64,000 nucleotides of DNA, from positions 684 through 64,683 of the forward strand of contig JBAYHD010000002.1 in the NCBI GenBank assembly GCA_041666305.1, read 5' to 3'. Positions 555-15,803 of this stretch are shown piece by piece; within the stretch, counting starts at the first letter, position 1; the number at the start of each line of letters is the position of its first letter. Both the position numbers and the translations under genes were made by a program. Below the pieces are notes generated by a model. That model was not told the DNA's origin, ran no database searches, and worked only from the letters and a program-made list of their open reading frames with translations. Origin of the DNA: Minisyncoccota bacterium. GTDB lineage: Bacteria; Patescibacteriota; Minisyncoccia; Phycocordibacterales; Phycocordibacteraceae.

Positions 555-3401
555 TTGGGAAAGCATATGGCGTACGACCACAAACACATTGAGAAGAAAT
601 GGCAGGAGAAATGGAAAAAGGACGAACCATATCGCTCAACCGAAGATACCGATAAGAAAAAAGCGTATGTGCTTGATATGTTCCCATACCCGTCAGGGGA
701 GGGGCTTCATGTGGGCCATCCGCGCGGATACATCGCGACCGATATTTATTCTCGCATGAAGCGCATGCAGGGGTACTCGGTGCTCCACCCGATGGGATGG
801 GACGCATTCGGTTTGCCGGCGGAAAATTATGCGCTCAAAAATAAAGTGCATCCGCGCGTTGCCGTGGAGAAGAACATTTCGAATTTCAAACAACAGCTCG
901 CGCACATCGGATTTGATTATGACTGGTCGCGCGAGATAAACACGACCGATCCCGCGTACTACAAATGGACTCAGTGGATATTCCTCAAAATGCTCGAGCA
1001 TAAGCTCGCGTTCCAATCGAACGAGCCCATCAACTGGTGCCCCTCATGCAAGACCGGACTCGCGAATGAAGACCTCGACGGTCCTGTGTGCGAACGCTGC
1101 GGCACTACGGTTGAGAAGAAAAGCTTGCCGCAGTGGGTGCTCAAAATTACCGACTACGCCGATCGCATGCTCGCAGACCTTGATTCGCTCAACTGGCCGG
1201 AGCACATCAAAGAAGCCCAACGGAATTGGATAGGGCGTTCCGAAGGTGCGGAAATTAGCTTTCCGATAGTCGGGAGCGAGGAAACCGTAACCGTATTCAC
1301 GACGCGACCGGACACGCTCTATGGTGCGACGTATCTGGTGCTCGCGCCGGAGCATCGCTTTCTCACCGATAAAAATTATGGGTTTACGAAATCCTTAATT
1401 AATGCAGATGACGTGCGGGCGTACGTCGCGCAGGCGGCAACGAAGACAGAGATAGAACGCGGCGCAGAAGGAAAAGAGAAGACCGGCGTGAAGCTCGAGG
1501 GCGTCAGGGCGCTCAATCCCGCGACGAAAGAAGAAATTCCTATCTACGTTGCCGACTACGTACTCGGTGGGTACGGTACAGGCGCCATCATGGCAGTCCC
1601 CGCGCACGACGAACGCGACTACGAATTTGCAAAGAAATTTAATATTCCGGTCCGGAACGTTGTTGAGCCGGTGCTTGTACAAACGACTGGTTCCGCTGCA
1701 TTCCGGGAGAACGAGCCTGTCCAAGACAGCAACGGCATCATTGCCATCGTGAAGCACTGGGGCGACGAGAAGTATATGGGCTTATATTGGTCGAAGGCAG
1801 AATGGGGCACACTTCTTACCGGCGGCATTGATGAAGGCATGGCGCCTGAAGAAACCGCCTTGAAAGAGATCCGCGAAGAAACCGGCTATACCGACGCGCG
1901 CATCGTTGAATCGTTCGGCACTATTCATAGCAAGTATTACCACGCACCGAAAGAACTCAATCGGTTCGGGCATGCACCGACATTTTATATCGAGCTCAAA
2001 AGCGATGCTCGCGAGGAAGTTTCTCCGGAAGAACTCGCCAAACACGAACTCCATTGGCTCACGAAAGAAGAATTGAAGTCATTTTTGACGGCAACATCAC
2101 ATTTGCAGGCGCTCGCGTTTTTGGATTCGCATGTCTATACCGGCTCCGGATTGCTTGCGAATTCGGGAGATTTTTCAGGCAAGGATAGCGAGCAGGCAAA
2201 ATGGGATATTACGCAAGCCGTGGGAGGGAAGCGCGTGACGCGCTACAAACTCCGCGATTGGGTTTTCTCACGCCAGCGCTATTGGGGCGAGCCGATACCG
2301 GTCATTCATTGTCCGAAAGACGGCGTGGTGCCAGTTCCGTATGAAGATTTGCCGGTCGTATTGCCGGAGGTGGAGTCGTATGAGCCGACCGGCACCGGCG
2401 AATCGCCCCTGGCCACCATCGAATCGTGGGTCAACACGAAGTGTCCGAAATGCGGCGAGCCGGCGAAGCGCGAGACGAACACGATGCCGCAATGGGCGGG
2501 CTCGTCGTGGTATTACCTGCGCTTCATGGACCCGCATGACGCAACCCAGCTTGTGTCCACGAAAAATGAAAAGTATTGGGCGCCGGTCGACGTGTACGTG
2601 GGCGGCGATCACGCCGTGCGCCATCTCATCTATGCGCGCTTCTGGCACAAGTTCCTCTATGATATCGGCGTAGTGAGCACGCAAGAACCGTTCGCGCGGC
2701 TGGAGTTCCTCGGTTTCATCCTTGCAGAAGACGGTCGCAAAATGAGCAAGCGCTACGGCAATGTCATCAATCCGGACGACGTCATCGCGGAATACGGCGC
2801 TGATGCGTTCCGTATCTATGAAATGTTCATGGGGCCATTCGAGAACACAACGAACTGGAGCACTGCTTCCATTGCCGGTACATCGCGTTTCGTGGAGCGA
2901 TTGTGGAATCTGCATGAGACGGTCACGGATGCGCCGGTTCCGGAGCTCGAGCCGCTCCTGCATCGCACCATTCAGAAAATAGGCGCGGACATCGAGTCGT
3001 TCAAATTCAATACCGCCGTGAGCCAAGCGATGATATTCCTGAACAAGATCGAAGAAGTCGGGAACATAGGAAAAGAGCAGTGGCGTTCTTTCATTTGCAT
3101 CCTTGCGCCACTGGCACCCCACTCCACAGAGGAATTGTGGGAGCTCTCCGGAGAAACTTCCTCCATCCACCTCGCTCCGTGGCCTTCATTTGACGAAAAG
3201 ATTATTGCCGCGAGCCATAGCGAGATCGTCGTGCAGGTGAACGGCAAGCGCCGCGGCTCTATTACGCTCCCTGCGGATGCCGTCGAAGAAGCCGCACTGG
3301 CGGCTGCAAAGGCTCTGCCGACCATCATGGCTATGCTCGACGGGAACGAGCCGAAACGGGTGATTTACGTGCCAGGCAGGATCATAAATCTTGTGGTATA
3401 G
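555..3401 (+). CDS. leuS: leucyl-tRNA synthetase carrying an internal Nudix-hydrolase-like insertion
   Basis: HIGH motif (HVGH), KMSKR motif, CP1 editing signatures (TTRPDT, YGTGAIMAVPAHDERD), YKLRDWVFSRQRYWGEPIP; about 130 extra residues (aa ~385-520) with Nudix fold and box GGIDEGMAPEETALKEIREETGY. Confidence 0.9.
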   Translation: MGKHMAYDHKHIEKKWQEKWKKDEPYRSTEDTDKKKAYVLDMFPYPSGEGLHVGHPRGYIATDIYSRMKRMQGYSVLHPMGWDAFGLPAENYALKNKVHPRVAVEKNISNFKQQLAHIGFDYDWSREINTTDPAYYKWTQWIFLKMLEHKLAFQSNEPINWCPSCKTGLANEDLDGPVCERCGTTVEKKSLPQWVLKITDYADRMLADLDSLNWPEHIKEAQRNWIGRSEGAEISFPIVGSEETVTVFTTRPDTLYGATYLVLAPEHRFLTDKNYGFTKSLINADDVRAYVAQAATKTEIERGAEGKEKTGVKLEGVRALNPATKEEIPIYVADYVLGGYGTGAIMAVPAHDERDYEFAKKFNIPVRNVVEPVLVQTTGSAAFRENEPVQDSNGIIAIVKHWGDEKYMGLYWSKAEWGTLLTGGIDEGMAPEETALKEIREETGYTDARIVESFGTIHSKYYHAPKELNRFGHAPTFYIELKSDAREEVSPEELAKHELHWLTKEELKSFLTATSHLQALAFLDSHVYTGSGLLANSGDFSGKDSEQAKWDITQAVGGKRVTRYKLRDWVFSRQRYWGEPIPVIHCPKDGVVPVPYEDLPVVLPEVESYEPTGTGESPLATIESWVNTKCPKCGEPAKRETNTMPQWAGSSWYYLRFMDPHDATQLVSTKNEKYWAPVDVYVGGDHAVRHLIYARFWHKFLYDIGVVSTQEPFARLEFLGFILAEDGRKMSKRYGNVINPDDVIAEYGADAFRIYEMFMGPFENTTNWSTASIAGTSRFVERLWNLHETVTDAPVPELEPLLHRTIQKIGADIESFKFNTAVSQAMIFLNKIEEVGNIGKEQWRSFICILAPLAPHSTEELWELSGETSSIHLAPWPSFDEKIIAASHSEIVVQVNGKRRGSITLPADAVEEAALAAAKALPTIMAMLDGNEPKRVIYVPGRIINLVV

Positions 3402-7099: not shown

Positions 7100-8695
7100 A
7101 TGCTCGACACGTTCAAGAAAGCTACACCCGAAGCACTGGCGGCTATTCGCGATGAAATGAAAGTCCGCTGCACCACAGAGGTCTTTCTGCTTTTTGCGCT
7201 CGGCAGTCAGTTCGACCACCTCATCTTCCAAGCGCTCGCGAAACTCGGCGTCTACGGTCTCGTCGCTGATCCGGCGAAAGTAACCGCCGCGGATGTCGAA
7301 TTGTTGAAACCCATCGGAATCATCCTGTCGGGTGGTCCGGCTTCCGTTCATTCGGAACCGCCGCCGTTCGACTCGAAGATTTTCGATCTCAGCATTCCGG
7401 TGTTAGGCATATGCCTCGGCTTCCAAATGTGGGCCAGGCACATCGGACTGACGGTACAGAGCGGTAGCCGGCAATTCGGCGTTCACACAGCAACGGTCAA
7501 TAATGTCAGTCCGCTCTTTGCGAACTGTTTGCACATTGAGCAGGTACTTCAAAGTCACGGTGATGAAATTTCCACCGACATAGACCGGTTCAAAACGCTT
7601 GCGGTGTGCGGCAACTCAGTCGCGGCAGGCCACGAGCGGAATCTGTGGGGTGTCCAGTTTCACCCCGAAGTGACCGAAACGAAATGTGGCCAAACAATCT
7701 TCGAGAATTTCTGCTTCCGGATTTGCAATGCCGAGGACCGCTTCCCCGCGCCGGATATCGCGAAACAGAAAATCGAGAAGTTGCGCAGCGAGATCGGCGA
7801 TAAGAAAGTCCTTCTCGCCCTCTCGGGTGGTTCGGATTCATCGACAGTTGCATATCTACTTAAGGCCGCAACGCGGGGCAAAGAACAGCTTCGTGGCGTC
7901 TACATCCGTGGCATCGATCGCCCGGATGACGAGGAGTTCGTTCATAAGTACTTCGGCGATCAGAACTGGATCGATCTCGTTATCGTCGATGCCACTGATC
8001 GCTTCCTTGCGGTGCTTGCAGGCAAGACGGGCATGCGAGAGAAGCGGCTCGCCATGCGCGAAGTCTACAAACCGGTGCTCGAAGAACAAGTTCGGGCATT
8101 TGGTGCGGAGTTCATCGCACAGGGTACGCTCTACACCGACATCTCGGAAAGTGGCGGAGGGCACGACAGCGGCGCACGGAAGGCAAACATCAAGATCCAT
8201 CACAATACGAATCTCGGATTCGCTTTTCCGGAACTGATGCCGCTTTCCGACTGTGTGAAGGATGGTGGCCGGGACATCGGCCGAGAGATCGGTGTACCGG
8301 AAGAACTGCTCGTCCGACATCCGTTCCCTGGACCAGGACTGGTCGTGAGGATCGAAGGCGAGATTACGCCGGAGAAACTCGCGATGGCGCGGCAACTCGA
8401 TGGCATCTACATCGAGGAACTGCGTCGAGCCGGGCTCTATGAAAAAGTTTGGCAAGCAGGGGTCGTGGTGACGAGATCCGAGCACACCTACACCGCCGGC
8501 GACGATGCAGGTACGGGTTCGGTGATCTGCTTTTGGGCGGTTTGGAGCGTCAATGGCTTTACTGCTCAAGCAGCTGATCTCCCGTTCGACTTTCGAAAGA
8601 ACTTGGCTCGACGTTTCGGAAACGAGGTACACGGCATTGGAGCCGTCGTGTATCGCGATTCGGATAAGCCACGTTCGACCATCGAGTGGGGTTGA
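7100..8695 (+). CDS. guaA: GMP synthase (glutamine-hydrolysing)
   Basis: class I glutamine amidotransferase motifs (GICLGFQ, VQFHPEV), PP-loop SGGSDSS, C-terminal FPGPGL; AGGAGG-like RBS aaaggggagg. Confidence 0.9.
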   Translation: MLDTFKKATPEALAAIRDEMKVRCTTEVFLLFALGSQFDHLIFQALAKLGVYGLVADPAKVTAADVELLKPIGIILSGGPASVHSEPPPFDSKIFDLSIPVLGICLGFQMWARHIGLTVQSGSRQFGVHTATVNNVSPLFANCLHIEQVLQSHGDEISTDIDRFKTLAVCGNSVAAGHERNLWGVQFHPEVTETKCGQTIFENFCFRICNAEDRFPAPDIAKQKIEKLRSEIGDKKVLLALSGGSDSSTVAYLLKAATRGKEQLRGVYIRGIDRPDDEEFVHKYFGDQNWIDLVIVDATDRFLAVLAGKTGMREKRLAMREVYKPVLEEQVRAFGAEFIAQGTLYTDISESGGGHDSGARKANIKIHHNTNLGFAFPELMPLSDCVKDGGRDIGREIGVPEELLVRHPFPGPGLVVRIEGEITPEKLAMARQLDGIYIEELRRAGLYEKVWQAGVVVTRSEHTYTAGDDAGTGSVICFWAVWSVNGFTAQAADLPFDFRKNLARRFGNEVHGIGAVVYRDSDKPRSTIEWG

Positions 8696-8796: not shown

Positions 8797-9732
8797 ATGA
8801 ACGTACTGGGAAAGAGGATATTCGTGGGGCTGTCGGGGGGTGTGGATAGCGCCGTATCGGCCACATTACTGAAGCAGGCAGGAGCAGAAGTGACCGGCGT
8901 ATTCATCAAGGGCTGGTATCCGCCCGGAATGCCGTGCACGTGGGCGGCAGAGCGCCGTGACGCGATGCGCGTGGCCGCCCGTCTTCATATTCCGTTCCTT
9001 ACGCTCGACGCGAGCGCGGAATATAAAAAGCACGTCATCGATTATTTGCTTGCGGAGTATCGTGCAGGACGGACGCCGAATCCGGACGTGATGTGCAACA
9101 GGGAAGTGAAGTTCGGTGCCTTCTATCGCTTTGCAATGGAACACGGAGCAGATGCTATCGCCACGGGGCACTATCGCGCGGGAGGAAAAGACCAAAGCTA
9201 TTTTTTGTGGGCAGTGCCAAAAGAAATTCTGGAAGCGACAATTTTTCCGGTGGGGCATATGGAAAAAAACAAAGTGCGCGCACTAGCTTCGAAATTTAGT
9301 CTTCCGGTCTCAGAGAAGCGGGACAGTCAGGGTATCTGCTTTCTCGGTGCGGTTTCCGTCAAGGAGTTTTTGGAGCAGGAATTTGGGAATGATAATCCGG
9401 CACTTCTCTACACCATCGGCCAAAAAGTTTCCGGCGGGTATGTGATTGGGAAAGATGTCGAGAAGAAAGAAATCATTGTTTCAAAGACGCGCGCCCTTGG
9501 CGCACGGGAAGTCCGATTCACGGACGCAAACTGGTTCGGCGAACCTGCGCAGGCAGGCAAACCGATCGAAGAAGTGGAAGCGCAGTATCGATATCGCGGA
9601 GAGCGCTGCGCGGGTCGCGTAGAAGGTGATCGATTCGTTAGTTCCGAACTGCTTCCGGAACAGCCGGCGCCCGGTCAATCAATCGTCTTCTACCGCGGTA
9701 CTAATTTGGTTGGCGGCGGGATTATTTTGTAG
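8797..9732 (+). CDS. mnmA: tRNA-specific 2-thiouridylase MnmA
   Basis: PP-loop SGGVDSAV, NPDVMCN, C-terminal domain conserved. Confidence 0.85.
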   Translation: MNVLGKRIFVGLSGGVDSAVSATLLKQAGAEVTGVFIKGWYPPGMPCTWAAERRDAMRVAARLHIPFLTLDASAEYKKHVIDYLLAEYRAGRTPNPDVMCNREVKFGAFYRFAMEHGADAIATGHYRAGGKDQSYFLWAVPKEILEATIFPVGHMEKNKVRALASKFSLPVSEKRDSQGICFLGAVSVKEFLEQEFGNDNPALLYTIGQKVSGGYVIGKDVEKKEIIVSKTRALGAREVRFTDANWFGEPAQAGKPIEEVEAQYRYRGERCAGRVEGDRFVSSELLPEQPAPGQSIVFYRGTNLVGGGIIL

Positions 9733-9891: not shown

Positions 9892-10302
9892 ATGAATCAC
9901 AAGCGTCTTTGGATCGCCGCAGCCATAATCGCGGTCGCCATTTTTATCGGCTTTGTCTTGTCGGTACCGCACACACGGGATGTCGGGGACAGTAAGTTTT
10001 CGCAAAATGCCGCACCGAGCGTGCCAAGTGTATCGCTTCGCGACTCATTCAAGAAAGGAGTGCACACTATCACCGGATCGGTTGAAGCCCCGAACGCCTG
10101 CGCAAGTGCGAGTGCCAAAGCATCACTCGCGGGTGAGGGGTCAGAGAGCGCCATCTTGGTCGCACTCACGCTCAAGGATGATGGTGGAGTATGCCTGCAG
10201 GTACCAACACGCGTGACATTCTCTGTGACGATTTCCGCGCCGGTCGATCTGGCGATAATCGCGACGGTTAATGGTGAATCGGCGACGACAACCGCCCCAT
10301 GA
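9892..10302 (+). CDS. hypothetical secreted/membrane-anchored protein
   Basis: track ORF 9763 starts inside the repeat element; first plausible start ATG 9892 (MNHKRLWIAAAIIAVAIF signal/TM); preceded by TGGTATATT extended -10. Confidence 0.4.
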   Translation: MNHKRLWIAAAIIAVAIFIGFVLSVPHTRDVGDSKFSQNAAPSVPSVSLRDSFKKGVHTITGSVEAPNACASASAKASLAGEGSESAILVALTLKDDGGVCLQVPTRVTFSVTISAPVDLAIIATVNGESATTTAP

Positions 10303-11168
10303 CGACTCTCCCGGTCATCATTAAAGCGGACGGGTCGAAGGAAGTATTCGATCCGACGCGTCTCGTCATATCGCTGCGTCGAGCGGGTGCCGGAGAACAC
10401 GCGGCCGAACGCATAACGAATGCGATCACTGAAACGGTTGTGCCAGGCGTTACCTCAAAAGAAATATATTCGCGCGCGTTCGCGCTCCTTCGCAAAGAGG
10501 CGCGTCCAGTGGCCGCACGCTACGCGCTTCGGCGCGCGCTTCTGGACCTCGGCCCTACGGGGCATCCGTTCGAAGATTTCATTTCGCATTTGTATCGTGC
10601 GGAGGGTTGGCAGGTTGAAACGCGCAAGATCATTAAAGGGAAGTGCGTATCGCACGAGGTCGATTTTTATGCATCTCATCCCGATCAGAAGGAATACATC
10701 GCCGCCGAGCTCAAATATCATAATGACCCCGGATATAAGACCGATCTCAAGAACGCGCTGTATGTGAAGAGCCGTTTTGATGATATTTTTGCATGCGACC
10801 CGAGCGTGCGCGGCTGTCCGATAAACCGCGGCATCTTGGTTACCAATACCAAATTCACTTCCGAAGCCATTGCGTATGCTGAATGCGCCGGTGTCGAGCT
10901 CCTTGGATGGAGCTATCCGTTGAACGATAGTTTGTACACGCGCATGAGCCGTTCAAAGATATATCCGATAACGACGGTCACGGGATTATCCCGCGCAGAA
11001 AAGACCATTCTTCTTGACCGGGGGATCATTGCTGTCGATGAGATATTGCAGGATAGGCGGGTGCTTGACCCGCTCCACCTTGACAGCGAACGGGTCGGCG
11101 AGCTTCTGGCGGAGATAGAAGGGTTGCTTGCGCTGCCTTCGGCCGCTCATGATATTGTTTCCGTATGA
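10299..11168 (+). CDS. ATP-cone domain fused to Mrr-like (PD-(D/E)xK) restriction endonuclease domain
   Basis: N-terminal VIIKADGSKEVFDPTRL...EIYSRAFALL fits ATP-cone; C-terminal EVDFYA...AAELKYH fits Mrr_cat D/ExK core. Confidence 0.6.
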   Translation: MTTLPVIIKADGSKEVFDPTRLVISLRRAGAGEHAAERITNAITETVVPGVTSKEIYSRAFALLRKEARPVAARYALRRALLDLGPTGHPFEDFISHLYRAEGWQVETRKIIKGKCVSHEVDFYASHPDQKEYIAAELKYHNDPGYKTDLKNALYVKSRFDDIFACDPSVRGCPINRGILVTNTKFTSEAIAYAECAGVELLGWSYPLNDSLYTRMSRSKIYPITTVTGLSRAEKTILLDRGIIAVDEILQDRRVLDPLHLDSERVGELLAEIEGLLALPSAAHDIVSV

Positions 11169-11259: not shown

Positions 11260-11742
11260 GTGACGGGTATGATGCGATTTTCAACAGAGTCTTTTGTCGC
11301 CGGAGTCATGCTGGGGGCGGTGTTGGTGGGGGCATGGTTTTTCGGCGGAGACATACGTTCACTGCCGTTCGCGTCTTCAGGATTTCTCGCGACGTCCACG
11401 GCATCCTCGTTCCAGGAGAGCGGAGCGGTATCCGTTGTTGATCAGCCGGCTGGTTCCAGCGTTGCGGTTGAATCCGTTACCGTGCCGCCGCCGGGCGTGT
11501 GGGTTGCGGTGCGCGAAGTGAACGGCGTCGATCTCGGCAACGTACTCGGTGCGGCGCGCGTGGTTGGTCCGCACAGCGACGTCATTGTTTCGCTTTTGCG
11601 CCCCACCGAGCCGAAGCGCTCCTACGCGATAGAACTCTACCGTGATGATAATAATGGGGCGTTTGATCCTTCGGCGAACAGCGTGTACGTTGATTTTGAA
11701 ACCGGTGCGCGCGTGGTCTCCTACTTCACGACTACTCAATGA
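11260..11742 (+). CDS. hypothetical secreted protein
   Basis: N-terminal hydrophobic helix; no family recognised. Confidence 0.4.
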   Translation: MTGMMRFSTESFVAGVMLGAVLVGAWFFGGDIRSLPFASSGFLATSTASSFQESGAVSVVDQPAGSSVAVESVTVPPPGVWVAVREVNGVDLGNVLGAARVVGPHSDVIVSLLRPTEPKRSYAIELYRDDNNGAFDPSANSVYVDFETGARVVSYFTTTQ

Positions 11743-12518
11743 GCAAGTATTACAAACCCGACCGTAATCCTGGTTGGAATTATGGCGGGAAGAATTGGCG
11801 TCTTTCACGATCGAAAATCGGTCTTTTTTTAGATTGCGCCCGGTGTTTTTATTTAGATAATAAATTAGGCACAGCTCGGCCGCCGGGGTACCCTTTCAAC
11901 CTGAATTCTGCGGTTGACGCTCTGTTAAAGAAAGAGTTTGATATCCATCGAGTCGGAAAGACAGCACATCCTCTCATGGAGACCTATGGTATTGATGCAA
12001 TACCATTTGAGCACGCAGATTTAGACGTCTGGCGTGAGAACTTTAAAGGAATCGAGATAACTCATGAACCGACCGGATTCAGAATTTCAGGAGCGATAGA
12101 TGATGTGTGGGTCAAGCCTGATGGCGAGCTTGTAATTGTTGATTATAAATCGACAAGCAAAGAGCAGAGGATAGAAGCCTTGGACGAGGAGTGGCATGAC
12201 GGCTATAAACGCCAAATGGAAACATACCAGTGGCTGTTCCGACAAAGCGGATTTAAAGTATCCAATACGGGCTATTTCGTATATGCCAATGCCGATAAAG
12301 ATAAGAAAGCATTTGATGGGGTTCTTACCTTTGAATTGACACTCATACCCTATGAAGGCAATGACTCTTGGGTGGAGTACACTCTCAGAGATATTAAAAC
12401 CTGTCTGGACAGCGACGCGATACCTGATGCGTATCCTGACTGCGACTATTGCCGGTATCGTACTGTCGCCGGAACGAAGCTGCTCGCTCTTCATAAAGAT
12501 ACCAAGGGGAAGGAATAG
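11739..12518 (+). CDS. Cas4/RecB-like PD-(D/E)xK nuclease with Fe-S cysteine cluster
   Basis: N-terminal CARCFYL Cys, IVDYKST (D-x-K) core, C-terminal CDYCRY cysteines; AT-rich relative to neighbours. Confidence 0.6.
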   Translation: MSKYYKPDRNPGWNYGGKNWRLSRSKIGLFLDCARCFYLDNKLGTARPPGYPFNLNSAVDALLKKEFDIHRVGKTAHPLMETYGIDAIPFEHADLDVWRENFKGIEITHEPTGFRISGAIDDVWVKPDGELVIVDYKSTSKEQRIEALDEEWHDGYKRQMETYQWLFRQSGFKVSNTGYFVYANADKDKKAFDGVLTFELTLIPYEGNDSWVEYTLRDIKTCLDSDAIPDAYPDCDYCRYRTVAGTKLLALHKDTKGKE

Positions 12519-12528
12519 AATACTGCGT

Positions 12529-12786
12529 ATGAAAAGCCTGTTTGCCGAACGTGTCCGAGATATAGTTCGCCAAATCCCGAAAGGGCAAACACTTTCATAT
12601 ATGAGAGTAGCCGCTATTGCTGGCAATCCTGGCGCCGCGCGAGCTGTGGGCACGGTGATGAAAAATAATTTTGACCCGCTGGTGCCGTGCCATCGCGTCG
12701 TCCGCGCTGACGGGAAGGTGGGCGATTATAATCGCGGCGGTGAACGAGCGAAGAAGCGCTTGTTAGAGAAAGAAGGCGCATTATGA
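12529..12786 (+). CDS. MGMT-family protein (methylated-DNA--protein-cysteine methyltransferase DNA-binding domain, PCHRV)
   Basis: PCHRVV active-site motif and YGxIA/NP signature; track ORF 12352 overlaps upstream gene, internal Met 12529 used. Confidence 0.6.
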   Translation: MKSLFAERVRDIVRQIPKGQTLSYMRVAAIAGNPGAARAVGTVMKNNFDPLVPCHRVVRADGKVGDYNRGGERAKKRLLEKEGAL

Positions 12787-13451
12787 ATGTAAAAATAGAT
12801 CCGTCATGGGCGAGGCACTTGAAGGGCGAATTTGAAAAGGCTTATTTTGAAGAGCTGACGAGATTCGTGAAGAATGAATACAAAAACGGCGCCGTGTACC
12901 CAGCGCCGAAGAATATTTTTCGTGCATTCGACCTGTGCCCGTTCGAAAAAGTGAAAGTGGTTATCCTCGGACAGGACCCGTACCACGGCGTTCGTCAGGC
13001 GAACGGCCTCGCGTTCGCCGTGGAGAGCACCGAGAAAATTCCACCGTCGCTTCAAAATATTTTTAAAGAAATTGAGAGCGATCTTCACGGGCCGCTTGTG
13101 CATGCAGACGGCGACCTCTCGCGCTGGGCGAAACAGGGCGTGTTGCTCCTCAATGCAACACTCACCGTGCGAGCCGGCATAGCCGGCTCGCACCAGGAGA
13201 AGGGGTGGGAGCAATTTACCGACGCTGTCATCAAAGCGCTTTCGGAGGAACACGAACATCTCGTTTTTATGCTCTGGGGCAATTATGCGAAGGCGAAGGG
13301 CGCACACATCGACCGCAGTAAGCACCTCGTGCTTGAAGCTCCGCATCCCTCGCCATTCTCCGCCGCCTCCGGCTTTTTCGGCTGTAAGCACTTCTCTAAA
13401 GCAAATGACTACCTCGTCGCTCACAACGAAACCCCGATAGACTGGTTGTGA
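12783..13451 (+). CDS. ung: uracil-DNA glycosylase (family 1)
   Basis: [19 protein letters not shown] motifs; full length 222 aa. Confidence 0.85.
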   Translation: MNVKIDPSWARHLKGEFEKAYFEELTRFVKNEYKNGAVYPAPKNIFRAFDLCPFEKVKVVILGQDPYHGVRQANGLAFAVESTEKIPPSLQNIFKEIESDLHGPLVHADGDLSRWAKQGVLLLNATLTVRAGIAGSHQEKGWEQFTDAVIKALSEEHEHLVFMLWGNYAKAKGAHIDRSKHLVLEAPHPSPFSAASGFFGCKHFSKANDYLVAHNETPIDWL

Positions 13452-13492: not shown

Positions 13493-13996
13493 ATGAAGAA
13501 AATAGTTTGGTGGATTTTAGGAATTACCCTCCTATCATATGTCGCTATCCGTATAGCCCCTGAGCTTTTCGTTTTCTTTGGTCAATTACTTGTTTTGCTA
13601 CCACTTCTGCTACCCATTTATGGTGTGTACTGGTATATGAAAAGGCCAAGGAAACAAAATATGACTCAGATTTCAACAAATTCATTACCGAATCAGGAAA
13701 GAAGTCCTATAAACAAGACTCTAGAAGTCGTTGGTGTGGGCTTCATGTACTTCTTTTTTATCGGTATGGGTCTAATGAATATGGCCAATTGTCGAGGAAA
13801 TGAATGTGACACATTCACAACATCTTTTGCCTTGGGCTGTATATGGTTGATAATCAGTCTTCTTGGTTTCGTCTATACTGTGTACATGAACGGATCATCT
13901 ACCAACAAGTGGTTACTGGTATTTAAACCTTACATCGCACTTCCAATTTTCTTTGCCATAATCTTTATGGGTCAACCACTGATAAGTGGTTACTAA
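13493..13996 (+). CDS. hypothetical integral membrane protein (AT-rich insert)
   Basis: 4-5 predicted TM helices; strongly AT-rich vs flanks; lies between ung and a duplicated ung 3' fragment. Confidence 0.45.
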   Translation: MKKIVWWILGITLLSYVAIRIAPELFVFFGQLLVLLPLLLPIYGVYWYMKRPRKQNMTQISTNSLPNQERSPINKTLEVVGVGFMYFFFIGMGLMNMANCRGNECDTFTTSFALGCIWLIISLLGFVYTVYMNGSSTNKWLLVFKPYIALPIFFAIIFMGQPLISGY

Positions 13997-14029: not shown

Positions 14030-14374
14030 GACGGAGATTTAACACGATGGGCCGAGCAGGGCGTATTGCTCCTCAATGCCACGCTCACCGTGCGAGCCGG
14101 CATAGCCGGCTCGCACCAGGAGAAGGGGTGGGAACAATTCACCGATGCCGTTATCAAGGCACTCTCAGAAGAGCGCGAGCATCTCGTTTTCATGCTCTGG
14201 GGCAATTATGCGAAGGCGAAGGGCGCACACATCGACCGCAGTAAGCACCTCGTGCTTGAAGCTCCGCACCCCTCGCCATTCTCCGCCGCATCCGGCTTTT
14301 TCGGGTGCAAACATTTCAGCCGTGCGAACGAGTATCTTATTTCCCACAACGAAACCCCCATCGACTGGCTCTAG
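14030..14374 (+). pseudogene. orphan duplicate of the ung 3' half (about 115 codons, no proper start)
   Basis: aligns to ung 13107-13451 at roughly 90% nt identity with mostly synonymous differences (e.g. gacctctcgcgc vs gatttaacacga both DL(S/T)R); opens directly after the stop of the 13493 gene in the same frame. Confidence 0.7.
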
Positions 14375-14495: not shown

Positions 14496-15248
14496 ATGCA
14501 AAAATTGAAGCAGGAAGCGGCGGCAAATCTTGCGGCGCTTGCACGGAATCCTTATCCGGGTCGCGTCATCATCATTGGTTTGGACCAAAAGGGCGAGAAC
14601 TTGGTTCAGGTCTATGCCATCATGGGTCGGAGCGAAAACAGCCGAAATCGCGTCTTCGGATACGAGGGCGGAAGAGTTTTCACCGAAGCCGCAAATCCGG
14701 CAAAAATGAAAGACCCGCGGCTGGTGATCTACAACGCCATGCGCGAGGTTTTGGTCCCAGGCATGGACAGCACCATGAACGTCGTCAGCAACGGCGATCA
14801 GACTGACAAAGTCGCCGATGGCTACAAGGAGGACAAGAGTTTCCAAGCGACGTTGAGCCAGTGCAAATATGAACCGGATGCTCCGAACTTCACTCCGCGC
14901 ATCACGGCGTCCAGCTACTGGCTCCGCAGCGGGAAGCCCGTCGGCCTCATGTCTTTGTTGCGTAAGTCGCCGTGGAGCGACGAATGCGATCGGCATTTGC
15001 ACGAAATCAACGGCTTCGGCCAGGGTTTCGGGCATTGTCTCACCACGTACCTGGGGGACGGCGATCCGTTGCCGGCATATCGCGGCGAGCCGCGTCTGAT
15101 GCCGCTTCTGGGCGACCTCGATTGGATCGCCGATATGTACTGGGAAATGCTGGACCCGGGCAACCGCGTGTCGCTCGCGGTGAAGTTCATTCCGCGGCTC
15201 GGTCTTTCAAGCACGGTCATCAGGAATCAGTATTCGAAAGTAGCCTGA
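14496..15248 (+). CDS. IMP cyclohydrolase-like protein (archaeal PurO family, tentative)
   Basis: N-terminal YPGRVIIIGLD...VYAIMGRSENSRNRVF resembles PurO; assignment from memory of family motifs only. Confidence 0.4.
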   Translation: MQKLKQEAAANLAALARNPYPGRVIIIGLDQKGENLVQVYAIMGRSENSRNRVFGYEGGRVFTEAANPAKMKDPRLVIYNAMREVLVPGMDSTMNVVSNGDQTDKVADGYKEDKSFQATLSQCKYEPDAPNFTPRITASSYWLRSGKPVGLMSLLRKSPWSDECDRHLHEINGFGQGFGHCLTTYLGDGDPLPAYRGEPRLMPLLGDLDWIADMYWEMLDPGNRVSLAVKFIPRLGLSSTVIRNQYSKVA

Positions 15249-15272: not shown

Positions 15273-15311
15273 GCGCCCGTCGGGACCAGTCCCGCGGGCG
15301 CGTTTATTTTT
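15273..15311. terminator. bidirectional rho-independent terminator between convergent genes
   Basis: AAAAAA-gcgcccg...cgggcgc-GTTTATTTTT; serves + gene 14496 and - gene 15304. Confidence 0.6.
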
Positions 15312-15675
15312 CCCAGTACGGTTTGAAATTCTCTATTTCTGAAATAAGCGCTTCGGCGGTTTCGCCCTTGTAACAAATGGCGCGGTCGTCGATGTATACA
15401 TGCGCGATGGGTTTCCCCGGATTATCTCCCTCTATGTCCGGTCGGTGATTTATATAATCGAACGGTACATTGAACTGTTCGCAGTACTTTTTCACGAATT
15501 CATCTCCGCGTGTCGTGTGGATGAGTATCTTGCATCCTTTTTCTTGGAGAAGTTTCATTGCCTGCACGACTTCGGGATTCGGCTCCTCGGTATTTTCTTT
15601 GGAAACAAATCCGTTATATGAGGCGATGACGCCGTCAAAATCAAACGCAATAACCGGAGCTTCGGACATAGTCAT
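15304..15675 (-). CDS. small HAD-superfamily hydrolase
   Basis: FDFDGVI DxD motif near N-terminus; start chosen at MTMSEAP (track ORF extends to 15693). Confidence 0.55.
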   Translation of the reverse strand: MTMSEAPVIAFDFDGVIASYNGFVSKENTEEPNPEVVQAMKLLQEKGCKILIHTTRGDEFVKKYCEQFNVPFDYINHRPDIEGDNPGKPIAHVYIDDRAICYKGETAEALISEIENFKPYWEK

Positions 15676-15803
15676 ACTAGTGTAACAAATCAATCACTAC
15701 CAAGCGAAGTTTATTTCAGGGCTTACTACCAAACGAGCCGAGCAGTGAATACATTCGATGTATTCATTCGAGGCAAGTGCAGGTAGAAAATCGTTCTTAC
15801 GTC

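What the first reader, a model, noticed from the sequence alone, without database searches (positions are those of the whole stretch)
10299..11168. ATP-cone regulatory domain fused to an Mrr-type restriction endonuclease fold
The N-terminal ~90 aa match the ATP-cone, the (d)ATP-sensing allosteric domain of ribonucleotide reductases and NrdR (VIIKADGSKEVFDPTRLVISL…EIYSRAFALL). The C-terminal half has the PD-(D/E)xK core of Mrr/restriction endonucleases (EVDFYA … AAELKYH). A nuclease whose activity could be gated by nucleotide pool status suggests a defence or nucleotide-stress effector. The gene is followed by a Cas4-like nuclease gene after one intervening ORF.
Basis: partly seen in the sequence, partly recalled or inferred. 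Interest (0 to 1): 0.65.

Follow-up and report, generated by a model that had tools for sequence, protein, structure and literature searches.

The report
ATP-cone nuclease, conserved uncharacterised family
The gene really does fuse an ATP/dATP-sensing ATP-cone to an intact restriction-endonuclease-type nuclease, but it is an ordinary member of a large, vertically inherited, already catalogued and never tested family whose gene neighbours point to nucleic-acid breakdown and nucleotide salvage or repair, not phage defence.

Summary
Observation confirmed. ORF 10299-11168 (+, 289 aa) passes Pfam cut-offs for ATP-cone (aa 6-79) and Mrr_cat (aa 87-202). Its model (pLDDT 92.5) superposes on NrdR/NrdD ATP-cones and on PDB 1Y88 (AF1548).

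The fusion is not new. An identical protein is in NCBI as "ATP cone domain-containing protein". The fixed three-domain family has at least 393 clusters at 50% identity across Patescibacteria, Bacteroidota, Chlamydiota and Archaea. The nuclease residues E92, E120, D122, E137 and K139 and the ATP-cone K9 are 100% conserved in 258 distant homologs.

Defence is not supported. There is no meaningful PADLOC hit, no phage copy and only 2 plasmid copies. The tree shows three pure taxon clades. In Patescibacteria the gene sits in a conserved housekeeping block (MnmA ... Cas4-like, MGMT-like, UDG). In the Bacteroidota-type clade and Criblamydia it heads a cassette: Usp, this gene, beta-CASP nuclease, NMP/nucleoside phosphorylase, PRPP synthetase.

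Best reading (about 0.5): an adenine-nucleotide-gated nuclease that starts nucleic-acid turnover or salvage. No biochemistry exists. Interest is moderate.

The parts
10299..11168 (+). Gene for the 289-aa three-domain protein: ATP-cone, PD-(D/E)xK nuclease, AF1548-like C-terminal domain
   Evidence: ORF. 100% identical to NCBI 'ATP cone domain-containing protein [Candidatus Paceibacterota bacterium]' (P0001). Model pLDDT 92.5.
10314..10535 (+). ATP-cone domain (aa 6-79)
   Evidence: PF03477 at 28.5 bits, above the 25.8 cut-off. Foldseek to NrdR and NrdD cones, rmsd 1.9 A. In 258 distant homologs: K9 100%, G12 99%, F17 94%, K21 97%, Y75 97%.
10548..10574 (+). Invariant linker LGPTGHPFE (aa 84-92) joining the last ATP-cone helix to nuclease helix 1; ends in the invariant E92
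   Evidence: G85, G88, F91 and E92 are 100% conserved. It is the most conserved stretch of the family and was picked as the scan pattern.
10557..10904 (+). Mrr_cat / PD-(D/E)xK nuclease domain (aa 87-202). Catalytic codons: D122 (10662-10664), E137 (10707-10709), K139 (10713-10715)
   Evidence: PF04471 at 25.9 bits, above the 21 cut-off. Matches 1Y88. E92, E120, D122, E137, K139, R159, D162 and N183 are 100% conserved.
10914..11132 (+). C-terminal helical domain (aa 206-278), AF1548-like_C type, possibly a helix-hairpin-helix-like DNA-binding module
   Evidence: Aligned to 1Y88 through aa 274. PF22357 passes its cut-off in homologs P0271 and P0279 but is not detected in the query itself. The isolated-domain model (pLDDT 86.5) gives only non-significant hits to RAD51/RadA N-terminal domain, BAF and Y-family polymerases.
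9892..10302 (+). Upstream 136-aa protein with an N-terminal hydrophobic helix; its stop overlaps the target's ATG (ATGA)
   Evidence: Sequence. No Pfam hit. Found upstream in 18 of the 83 loci searched, mostly the closer relatives.
8797..9732 (+). mnmA (tRNA 2-thiouridylase), the conserved upstream neighbour in Patescibacteria
   Evidence: Pfam tRNA_Me_trans. Upstream in 64 of 83 loci.
11260..11742 (+). DUF7282 protein with an N-terminal hydrophobic segment (the intervening ORF)
   Evidence: PF23951, E=1.4e-9. Present in 26 of 83 loci.
11739..12518 (+). Stand-alone Cas4-like PD-(D/E)xK nuclease (PDDEXK_1)
   Evidence: PF12705, E=5.7e-18. cas4 TIGR00372 scores 34.3 bits, below its cut-off of 65. 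Present in 47 of 83 loci.
12529..12786 (+). 85-aa MGMT-type DNA_binding_1 protein with a PCHRV motif (start inferred from relatives)
   Evidence: PF01035, E=6.9e-28. 86 aa in L001. Present in 29 of 83 loci.
12783..13451 (+). Uracil-DNA glycosylase
   Evidence: PF03167, E=8.2e-18. Present in 28 of 83 loci.

Best explanation
The gene encodes a catalytically intact, Mg-dependent PD-(D/E)xK nuclease of the AF1548 family. Its N-terminal ATP-cone senses adenine nucleotides (ATP and/or dATP). I infer that it switches the enzyme on or off by changing conformation or oligomeric state, as ATP-cones do in ribonucleotide reductases and NrdR. A rigid, invariant linker would carry that change directly to the helix bearing the catalytic Glu92. 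It is a vertically inherited chromosomal housekeeping or stress gene. Its most likely job is to start controlled breakdown of nucleic acid that feeds nucleotide salvage or catabolism, with the adenylate/dATP pool acting as the feedback signal. In this Patescibacteria genome it probably works with the neighbouring Cas4-like nuclease; in the Bacteroidota-type clade and Chlamydiota it works with an adjacent beta-CASP nuclease, an NMP/nucleoside phosphorylase and a PRPP synthetase. Shown: the domains, the fold, the residue conservation, the phyletic pattern and the gene neighbourhoods. Inferred: nucleotide binding, the direction of regulation, the substrate (DNA or RNA) and the physiological role.
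For: Domains and fold. In 258 homologs under 50% identical to the query, E92, E120, D122, E137, K139, R159, D162 and N183 are 100% conserved, so this is an active enzyme and not a degenerate fold. ATP-cone positions I7, K9, E15 and R21 align with E. coli NrdR V51, K53, E59 and K65. Mutating these residues lowers nucleotide binding (PMC12176259). In the family they are I/V 98%, K 100%, E 76% and K 97%. Y75 aligns with NrdR F127, the residue that excludes ATP's 2'-OH from the outer dATP site. The architecture is fixed at about 260-290 aa in at least 393 clusters at 50% identity, including Archaea. Neighbourhood evidence: the cassette of ATP-cone nuclease, beta-CASP MBL, archaeal-type thymidine/AMP-phosphorylase-like protein (TIGR02645 above its cut-off) and PRK07199 ribose-phosphate diphosphokinase occurs in Pontibacter, Criblamydia and Owenweeksia. 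In 80 independent metagenome loci, the MBL gene lies within 3 kb downstream on the same strand in 31 of 57 loci with enough sequence, the full cassette in 10 of 38, and a Usp gene directly upstream in 21 of 60. The Criblamydia cassette is flanked by phosphoketolase, GlgP and acetate kinase. The family is common in Patescibacteria and also appears in records named Nanoarchaeota and Aenigmarchaeota; from general knowledge, not tested here, these reduced-genome lineages largely depend on nucleotide salvage.
Against: No biochemical data exist for any family member, and I found no paper on it. The window's own neighbourhood lacks the beta-CASP, phosphorylase and PRPP-synthetase genes; it carries DNA-repair-type genes instead (Cas4-like, MGMT-like, UDG). 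That fits a repair role as well as a salvage role. Patescibacterial gene order is conserved in general, so adjacency there is weak evidence of shared function. Archaeal contexts are heterogeneous: CorA, MscS, a permease-Usp fusion, RNA polymerase genes. The ATP-cone scores are modest. The canonical Arg of the 'KR' motif is Ala here, as it is Ser in E. coli NrdR. The ligand could be something other than ATP/dATP.
Confidence: 0.5

Rival explanations
1. A structure-specific DNA repair or recombination endonuclease, used with the neighbouring Cas4-like nuclease, MGMT-like protein and UDG. The ATP-cone would license cleavage only when dNTP/ATP pools allow resynthesis.
For: In Patescibacteria the gene lies in a block with PDDEXK_1 (47 of 83 loci), MGMT DNA_binding_1 (29) and UDG (28). 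A nuclease followed by a possibly HhH-like C-terminal domain recalls the XPF/Hef layout (my own knowledge). The weak top hits for the C-terminal domain are RAD51/RadA N-terminal domain, BAF and Y-family polymerases. There are weak Hjc hits, and JGI labels some members 'Holliday junction resolvase'.
Against: The block also holds unrelated genes (mnmA, mltG, two membrane-anchored proteins) and looks like general conserved gene order. None of these repair genes accompany the gene in Bacteroidota, Chlamydiota or Archaea. The C-terminal domain hits are not significant (E>1). One archaeal locus has a separate Hjc nearby.
Confidence: 0.25
2. One reading: a type IV (Mrr-like) restriction or anti-phage effector that cuts foreign or modified DNA when phage infection disturbs nucleotide pools.
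For: Mrr_cat membership. The nuclease core resembles the catalytic domains of MspJI and AspBHI and the ligand-gated CRISPR ancillary nucleases Can2, Card1 and Cdn1. There is a weak ZorD hit. One archaeal locus lies next to an R-M pair and one near HicA and IS240.
Against: PADLOC gives no significant hit (11.7 bits, E=0.009). There are no copies in 50,697 phage records and 2 in 72,556 plasmids. Archaea, Bacteroidota and Patescibacteria form pure clades. Close relatives are 75-85% identical, and gene order is fixed down to about 40% identity. No modification-reading domain or methyltransferase is present. No defence genes recur in the neighbourhoods.
Confidence: 0.1
3. An NrdR-like nucleotide-sensing DNA-binding regulator that uses the nuclease fold and C-terminal domain only to bind DNA, without cutting it.
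For: The closest ATP-cone relatives by profile and by fold are NrdR cones. One JGI record is labelled 'transcriptional regulator NrdR family protein'.
Against: Every catalytic and metal-binding residue is 100% conserved across 258 distant homologs, which is not expected for a non-catalytic scaffold. There is no Zn-ribbon.
Confidence: 0.05

Closest known systems
AF1548 of Archaeoglobus fulgidus (PDB 1Y88; Pfam Mrr_cat + AF1548-like_C), a structural-genomics protein of unknown function
   Same: Same family. The family profile hits it at E=1.2e-51 over the nuclease and C-terminal domains. Foldseek gives E=1e-13 and a target-normalised TM-score of 0.74. The predicted D/E/K catalytic triad is the same.
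   Different: The crystallised chain (199 residues including the tag) has no ATP-cone or linker. A 99%-identical ORF, P0389, is 265 aa and begins with a canonical ATP-cone, 'VRKRDGRLEEF'. The PDB construct therefore most likely reflects a 5'-truncated gene model, and it lacks the invariant GPxGFxFE motif. This is an inference; I could not read the reference genome.
NrdR (Zn-ribbon + ATP-cone repressor of ribonucleotide reductase genes)
   Same: Closest ATP-cone by profile (E about 0.005) and by fold (rmsd 1.9 A). Equivalents of NrdR V51, K53, E59, K65 and F127 are conserved. It is the precedent for an ATP-cone controlling a nucleic-acid-binding module through ATP/dATP-dependent oligomerisation.
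   Different: No Zn-ribbon. The output domain is an intact nuclease, not a DNA-binding ribbon. The loop that carries NrdR K76 is absent.
Ribonucleotide reductase ATP-cones (NrdA, NrdD, NrdB)
   Same: Same domain and an N-terminal position on an enzyme of nucleotide or nucleic-acid metabolism. P. copri NrdD superposes at rmsd 1.9 A with 24% identity.
   Different: The regulated enzyme is a nuclease. The canonical 'KR' is 'KA' in most family members.
Mrr / MspJI / AspBHI type IV restriction endonucleases
   Same: Same PD-(D/E)xK catalytic core (Pfam Mrr_cat; Foldseek E about 1e-3).
   Different: No modification-reading domain. Vertical inheritance and fixed gene order instead of patchy, mobile distribution.
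Can2 / Card1 / Cdn1 (CARF-sensor + PD-(D/E)xK nucleases activated by cyclic oligoadenylates)
   Same: Same design logic, a small-molecule nucleotide sensor fused to a restriction-endonuclease-fold effector. The nuclease cores are structurally similar.
   Different: The sensor is an ATP-cone, not CARF. The gene is not linked to CRISPR or CBASS loci. The presumed ligands are ordinary pool nucleotides, not dedicated second messengers.

Membership tests
ATP-cone (PF03477) | Profile HMM match above the curated cut-off | tested here: met
   28.5 bits against 25.8, aa 6-79. Homologs P0271 and P0279 score 29.6 and 29.8 bits.
ATP-cone (PF03477) | Fold: beta-hairpin cap on a helical bundle, superposable on RNR/NrdR cones | tested here: met
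   Model strands 6-8 and 14-16, then helices. Foldseek to 9gex, 8p28 and 7agj: rmsd 1.9-2.4 A over 83-91 columns.
ATP-cone (PF03477) | Conserved nucleotide-contacting residues (Lys of the N-terminal VxK motif, Glu, second Lys) | tested here: met
   I7, K9, E15 and R21 align with NrdR V51, K53, E59 and K65. Family conservation: 98%, 100%, 76% and 97%. The Arg of the canonical 'KR' is Ala (67% of the family), as it is Ser in E. coli NrdR.
ATP-cone (PF03477) | Actual binding of ATP/dATP and allosteric effect | not testable with these tools
   Needs ITC or activity assays.
Mrr_cat / PD-(D/E)xK nuclease (PF04471) | Profile HMM match above the curated cut-off | tested here: met
   25.9 bits against 21, aa 87-202.
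Mrr_cat / PD-(D/E)xK nuclease (PF04471) | Catalytic D...(E/Q)xK with an upstream helix Glu, conserved in orthologs | tested here: met
   E92, D122, E137 and K139 are 100% conserved in 258 homologs under 50% identity.
Mrr_cat / PD-(D/E)xK nuclease (PF04471) | Nuclease activity | not testable with these tools
   No member has been assayed, as far as I could find.
AF1548-like three-domain family | End-to-end homology to AF1548 (nuclease + C-terminal domain) and the shared ATP-cone + linker architecture | tested here: met
   E=5.5e-21 for the query and 1.2e-51 for the profile. Nearly all of the 150 listed representatives are about 270-290 aa and match end to end. Archaeal members carry ATP-cone + Mrr_cat + AF1548-like_C.
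AF1548-like three-domain family | Pfam AF1548-like_C (PF22357) match in the C-terminal domain | tested here: inconclusive
   Not reported for the query even at E<=10, but 25.0 and 25.6 bits (cut-off 23.9) in homologs P0271 and P0279. The query aligns to 1Y88 through aa 274.
Type IV restriction / anti-phage defence system | Match to a known defence-system model | tested here: not met
   PADLOC gives only the ZorD Mrr-like tail, 11.7 bits, E=0.009.
Type IV restriction / anti-phage defence system | Modification-reading or target-recognition domain (as in Mrr, MspJI, AspBHI) | tested here: not met
   Pfam finds only ATP-cone and Mrr_cat, and the remaining C-terminal part aligns to AF1548's C-terminal domain; no modification-reading or other DNA-recognition domain is present.
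Type IV restriction / anti-phage defence system | Patchy, horizontally mobile distribution; location in variable islands | tested here: not met
   Pure taxon clades. Gene order conserved, with mnmA upstream in 64 of 83 loci. No phage records and 2 plasmid records.
NrdR | N-terminal Zn-ribbon DNA-binding domain | tested here: not met
   The ATP-cone starts at residue 6, with no Cys4 ribbon.
Cas4 (the neighbouring gene 11739-12518) | Score above the cas4 equivalog cut-off and association with CRISPR-cas | tested here: not met
   TIGR00372 scores 34.3 bits against a cut-off of 65. No tandem-repeat or CRISPR array anywhere in the window. None of the 26 window ORFs scanned against Pfam matched a Cas family other than this gene's generic PD-(D/E)xK hit; the rest of the window was not scanned for cas genes.

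The most novel reading that the evidence does not exclude
This family is the first ATP-cone-regulated nuclease. It would be a widely conserved switch, in Patescibacteria, Bacteroidota, Chlamydiota and Archaea (including records labelled Nanoarchaeota and Aenigmarchaeota), that reads the ATP/dATP pool and opens or closes the first step of a nucleic-acid-to-nucleotide salvage or catabolic pathway: nuclease, then beta-CASP or Cas4-like nuclease, then NMP/nucleoside phosphorylase, then PRPP synthetase. That would extend ATP-cone allostery from dNTP synthesis (RNR, NrdR) to nucleic-acid degradation.
Probability: 0.4. Interest if true: 0.7.

Novelty: new member of a known kind. Interest (0 to 1): 0.5.

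Why it matters
ATP-cones have been studied almost only in ribonucleotide reductases and NrdR, where they tie dNTP synthesis to the ATP/dATP pool. A conserved nuclease under the same sensor would be the degradative counterpart. It matters most for Patescibacteria and similar reduced-genome archaea, which (general knowledge, not tested here) largely depend on scavenged nucleotides. It also matters for stress and starvation survival clusters in Bacteroidota. The family is large, has a high-confidence model and a partial crystal structure, and has orthologs in cultivable bacteria (Tenacibaculum, Marinilabilia, Mariniphaga, Pontibacter), so the hypothesis can be tested directly. For genome annotation, the work argues against calling these genes 'restriction endonuclease' or defence genes. 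It also suggests that PDB 1Y88 represents a truncated protein.

Tried and rejected
- NCBIfam gave no hit for the target, and PADLOC gave nothing meaningful.
- A fold search with the isolated C-terminal domain gave no significant match (best E=1.1). The helix-hairpin-helix assignment therefore stays a suggestion, supported only by the kind of weak hits and by my memory of how 1Y88 was classified.
- The promoter and terminator scan of 8.6-14.6 kb found fewer sites than shuffled sequence and says nothing about operon boundaries.
- There are no tandem repeats or CRISPR arrays in the window.
- Eight literature searches found no paper on the fusion, the family's function or the cassette; the AF1548 search found only the 2007 catalytic-residue prediction. 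One further search term was rejected by the tool.
- The original ATP-cone paper (PMID 10939243) is not held, so I could not check whether it already listed nuclease fusions.
- I considered and rejected a degenerate, non-catalytic nuclease fold, because the catalytic residues are invariant.
- I considered and rejected a CRISPR link for the Cas4-like neighbour.
- Archaeal neighbourhoods gave no consistent partner beyond a recurring amino-acid-permease-Usp fusion and ion channels. I did not build on these.
Full report
**1.
Pfam places an ATP-cone at aa 6-79 (28.5 bits, cut-off 25.8) and Mrr_cat at aa 87-202 (25.9 bits, cut-off 21). The margins are modest, but three independent lines agree.
- The protein matches PDB 1Y88 (AF1548) at E=5.5e-21 over aa 94-274.
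- A profile of 57 family members hits 1Y88 at 1.2e-51 and NrdR/NrdD ATP-cones at E=0.005-0.02.
- An AlphaFold2 model (pLDDT 92.5, pTM 0.87) matches 1Y88 (E=1e-13, target-normalised TM-score 0.74). Its N-terminal domain superposes on the ATP-cones of E. coli NrdR and Prevotella copri NrdD at rmsd 1.9 A over 83-84 columns.

AAELK' motif is D122/E137/K139. These align with the D38/E51/K53 predicted as catalytic for AF1548 in PMC1821046.

**2. It is a member of a big, fixed-architecture family that is already catalogued.**
The exact protein is in NCBI as 'ATP cone domain-containing protein [Candidatus Paceibacterota bacterium]' (P0001). Other sources name relatives 'restriction endonuclease', 'ATPase', 'Holliday junction resolvase' or 'Restriction endonuclease/ATP cone domain'.
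- An exhaustive HMMER search of 1.84 billion cluster representatives finds 393 clusters at E<1e-30. Nearly all are about 270-290 aa and match end to end.
The hits span Patescibacteria and cultured Bacteroidota such as Tenacibaculum, Marinilabilia and Mariniphaga.
- A plasmid search adds Chlamydiota (Criblamydia).
- A search seeded with AF1548 shows the same three-domain proteins in Archaeoglobi and in records labelled Nanoarchaeota, Aenigmarchaeota and Hadesarchaea.

One side result: the best AF1548 relative (P0389, 99% identical) is 265 aa and starts with a canonical ATP-cone, 'VRKRDGRLEEF'. The crystallised chain (199 residues including the tag) therefore most likely came from a 5'-truncated gene model and lacks both the cone and the invariant linker. 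This is an inference.

**3. Both domains are under strong purifying selection.**
In 258 homologs under 50% identical to the query, E92, E120, D122, E137, K139, R159, D162 and N183 are 100% conserved. In the ATP-cone, K9 is 100%, G12 99%, F17 94%, K21 97% (the query has Arg), T53 96% (the query has Ser) and Y75 97%.

From the profile alignment to E. coli NrdR, I7/K9/E15/R21 correspond to NrdR V51/K53/E59/K65. Mutating these residues reduces nucleotide binding, changes oligomeric state and impairs DNA binding (PMC12176259). Y75 corresponds to F127, which excludes the 2'-OH of ATP from the outer dATP site. The canonical Arg of the 'KR' motif is Ala in most members, but E. coli NrdR has Ser there and still binds ATP and dATP. 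So the sequence points to a working nuclease and a working nucleotide sensor. Neither function has been tested.

**4. It is not a defence gene by any test I could run.**
- PADLOC returns only an 11.7-bit hit to the Mrr-like tail of ZorD.
- None of 50,697 phage records and only 2 of 72,556 plasmids encode it.
- A neighbour-joining tree of 96 taxon-labelled members puts Archaea (17/17), Bacteroidota (13/13) and Patescibacteria (65/65 plus the query) in three pure clades. The tree has no support values, and the sample consists of top-scoring hits.
- Close relatives are 75-85% identical.
- In Patescibacteria the order MltG, MnmA, [small membrane protein], this gene, [DUF7282], Cas4-like PDDEXK_1, MGMT-like, UDG persists while the protein diverges to about 40% identity. 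Across the 83 loci searched, MnmA is upstream in 64, the Cas4-like gene is present in 47, MGMT-like in 29 and UDG in 28.
- The target's ATG overlaps the stop of the upstream gene (ATGA).
- No methyltransferase or modification-reading domain is present.
- The Cas4-like neighbour is below the cas4 cut-off (34.3 bits against 65), and the window has no tandem-repeat or CRISPR array.

**5. What the neighbours say about function.**
Outside Patescibacteria, none of the neighbours above occur. Instead, the two plasmid copies (Pontibacter actiniarum in Bacteroidota, Criblamydia sequanensis in Chlamydiota) and the Owenweeksia chromosome share a co-directional cassette:
1. this gene;
2. an MBL/beta-CASP nuclease with an aCPSF1-like RNase core;
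3. an archaeal-type thymidine/AMP-phosphorylase-like protein (TIGR02645 at 589-602 bits against a cut-off of 435; the AMP_phos model at 480-507 bits, just under its cut-off of 535);
4. a PRK07199-type ribose-phosphate diphosphokinase.

In Criblamydia the cassette is flanked by a P-type ATPase, phosphoketolase, glycogen phosphorylase and acetate kinase.

I tested this on an independent sample of 80 metagenome loci from the Bacteroidota-type clade. Counts use only loci with enough flanking sequence:

| Neighbour | Loci |
|---|---|
| beta-CASP gene within 3 kb downstream, same strand | 31 of 57 |
| any of the three partner genes | 22 of 38 |
| full cassette | 10 of 38 |
| Usp gene directly upstream | 21 of 60 |

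Nucleases, then an NMP/nucleoside phosphorylase, then a PRPP synthetase form a plausible route from nucleic acid to reusable or catabolisable nucleotide parts, in a stress (Usp) setting. Archaeal contexts are heterogeneous: CorA, MscS, an amino-acid-permease-Usp fusion twice, RNA polymerase genes, and once an adjacent R-M pair. They add little.

**6. Best mechanism.**
I commit, at a confidence of about 0.5, to an adenine-nucleotide-gated nuclease that starts controlled nucleic-acid turnover for salvage or catabolism, with the ATP/dATP pool as the feedback signal.
- *Shown:* the domains, the fold, the invariant catalytic and ligand-site residues, the vertical inheritance and the neighbourhoods.
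- *Inferred:* that ATP and/or dATP bind, and that binding changes conformation or oligomeric state as it does in RNR and NrdR.
- *Inferred:* that the signal passes through the invariant linker to the helix carrying E92.
- *Unknown:* the direction of regulation and the substrate. The beta-CASP partner hints at RNA. The possibly HhH-like C-terminal domain and the UDG/MGMT/Cas4-like neighbours hint at DNA.

In both lineages a second, different nuclease is encoded next to it: Cas4-like in Patescibacteria and beta-CASP in the Bacteroidota-type clade. That fits an endonuclease working with a processing nuclease.

**7. Rivals.**
- A DNA repair or recombination nuclease (0.25). This rests on the Patescibacteria block, but the block is absent elsewhere and includes unrelated genes.
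- A type IV restriction or defence enzyme (0.1). This is disfavoured by section 4.
- An NrdR-like non-catalytic regulator (0.05). This is contradicted by the invariant catalytic residues.

**8. Comparison with what is known, and novelty.**
It is a member of ATP-cone, Mrr_cat and the AF1548 family, and all sequence and fold criteria are met. It is not NrdR (no Zn-ribbon). It does not fit a type IV restriction system: no reader domain, no mobile distribution and no defence-model hit. In design it works like Can2/Card1-type ligand-gated PD-(D/E)xK nucleases, but the sensor is an ATP-cone and the presumed ligands are ordinary pool nucleotides.

I found no paper that characterises or discusses the family's function. 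The only mention is the 2007 catalytic-residue prediction for AF1548. I could not read the original ATP-cone paper.

Verdict: the gene is an ordinary member of a catalogued but unstudied family, and the fusion itself is not a discovery. The open and testable question is whether an ATP-cone regulates a nuclease and what that nuclease degrades. Interest 0.5.

Noticed in passing
window 13107-13406 and 14030-14329 (with ORFs 12783-13451, 13493-13996, 14066-14374): The 3' half of the UDG gene is repeated 923 nt downstream at 86% identity, as an N-terminally truncated UDG ORF. The two copies flank a low-GC 167-aa multi-pass membrane ORF with no Pfam match. This looks like an insertion or partial duplication at the 3' end of UDG. 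Relatives L001 and L003 lack it.
   Followed up: partly
window 555-3401 (+): The leucyl-tRNA synthetase (948 aa) carries a NUDIX domain (PF00293, aa 415-511, E=2.5e-10) inserted after the editing domain, which is an unusual fusion.
   Followed up: no
PDB 1Y88 / protein P0389; locus L086 5001-5798: The crystallised AF1548 chain (199 residues including the tag) lacks the ATP-cone and the invariant linker. A 99%-identical ORF is 265 aa with a canonical ATP-cone, so the structure probably derives from a truncated gene model.
   Followed up: partly
window 7100-8695 (+): A GMP synthase gene lies between mltG and mnmA only in this window. None of the 83 related loci has it there.
   Followed up: no
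window 12529-12786 (+): An 85-aa stand-alone MGMT-type DNA_binding_1 protein keeps the PCHRV active-site cysteine motif but has no N-terminal domain. It is conserved next to the Cas4-like gene and UDG in many Patescibacteria.
   Followed up: no
L003 2757-5531: In one relative, mnmA is called as a 924-aa fusion with a large serine recombinase (Resolvase/Recombinase/Zn_ribbon_recom), preceded by small unannotated ORFs. This may be an integrated element at the 5' end of mnmA.
   Followed up: no
window 14496-15248 (+) and 15304-15693 (-): An archaeal-type IMP cyclohydrolase-like (PurO, PF07826) gene and a small HAD hydrolase lie just downstream of the block. Together with GuaA, they show nucleotide-interconversion genes in this region.
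   Followed up: no
L092 (Criblamydia sequanensis plasmid NZ_LK031773, 5885-18634) and L091 (Pontibacter plasmid): The nuclease, beta-CASP, phosphorylase and PRPP-synthetase cassette sits in a cluster with a P-type ATPase, phosphoketolase, GlgP and acetate kinase. It is shared at about 50-60% protein identity between a chlamydial plasmid and a Bacteroidota plasmid, which suggests transfer of the cassette as a unit.
   Followed up: partly
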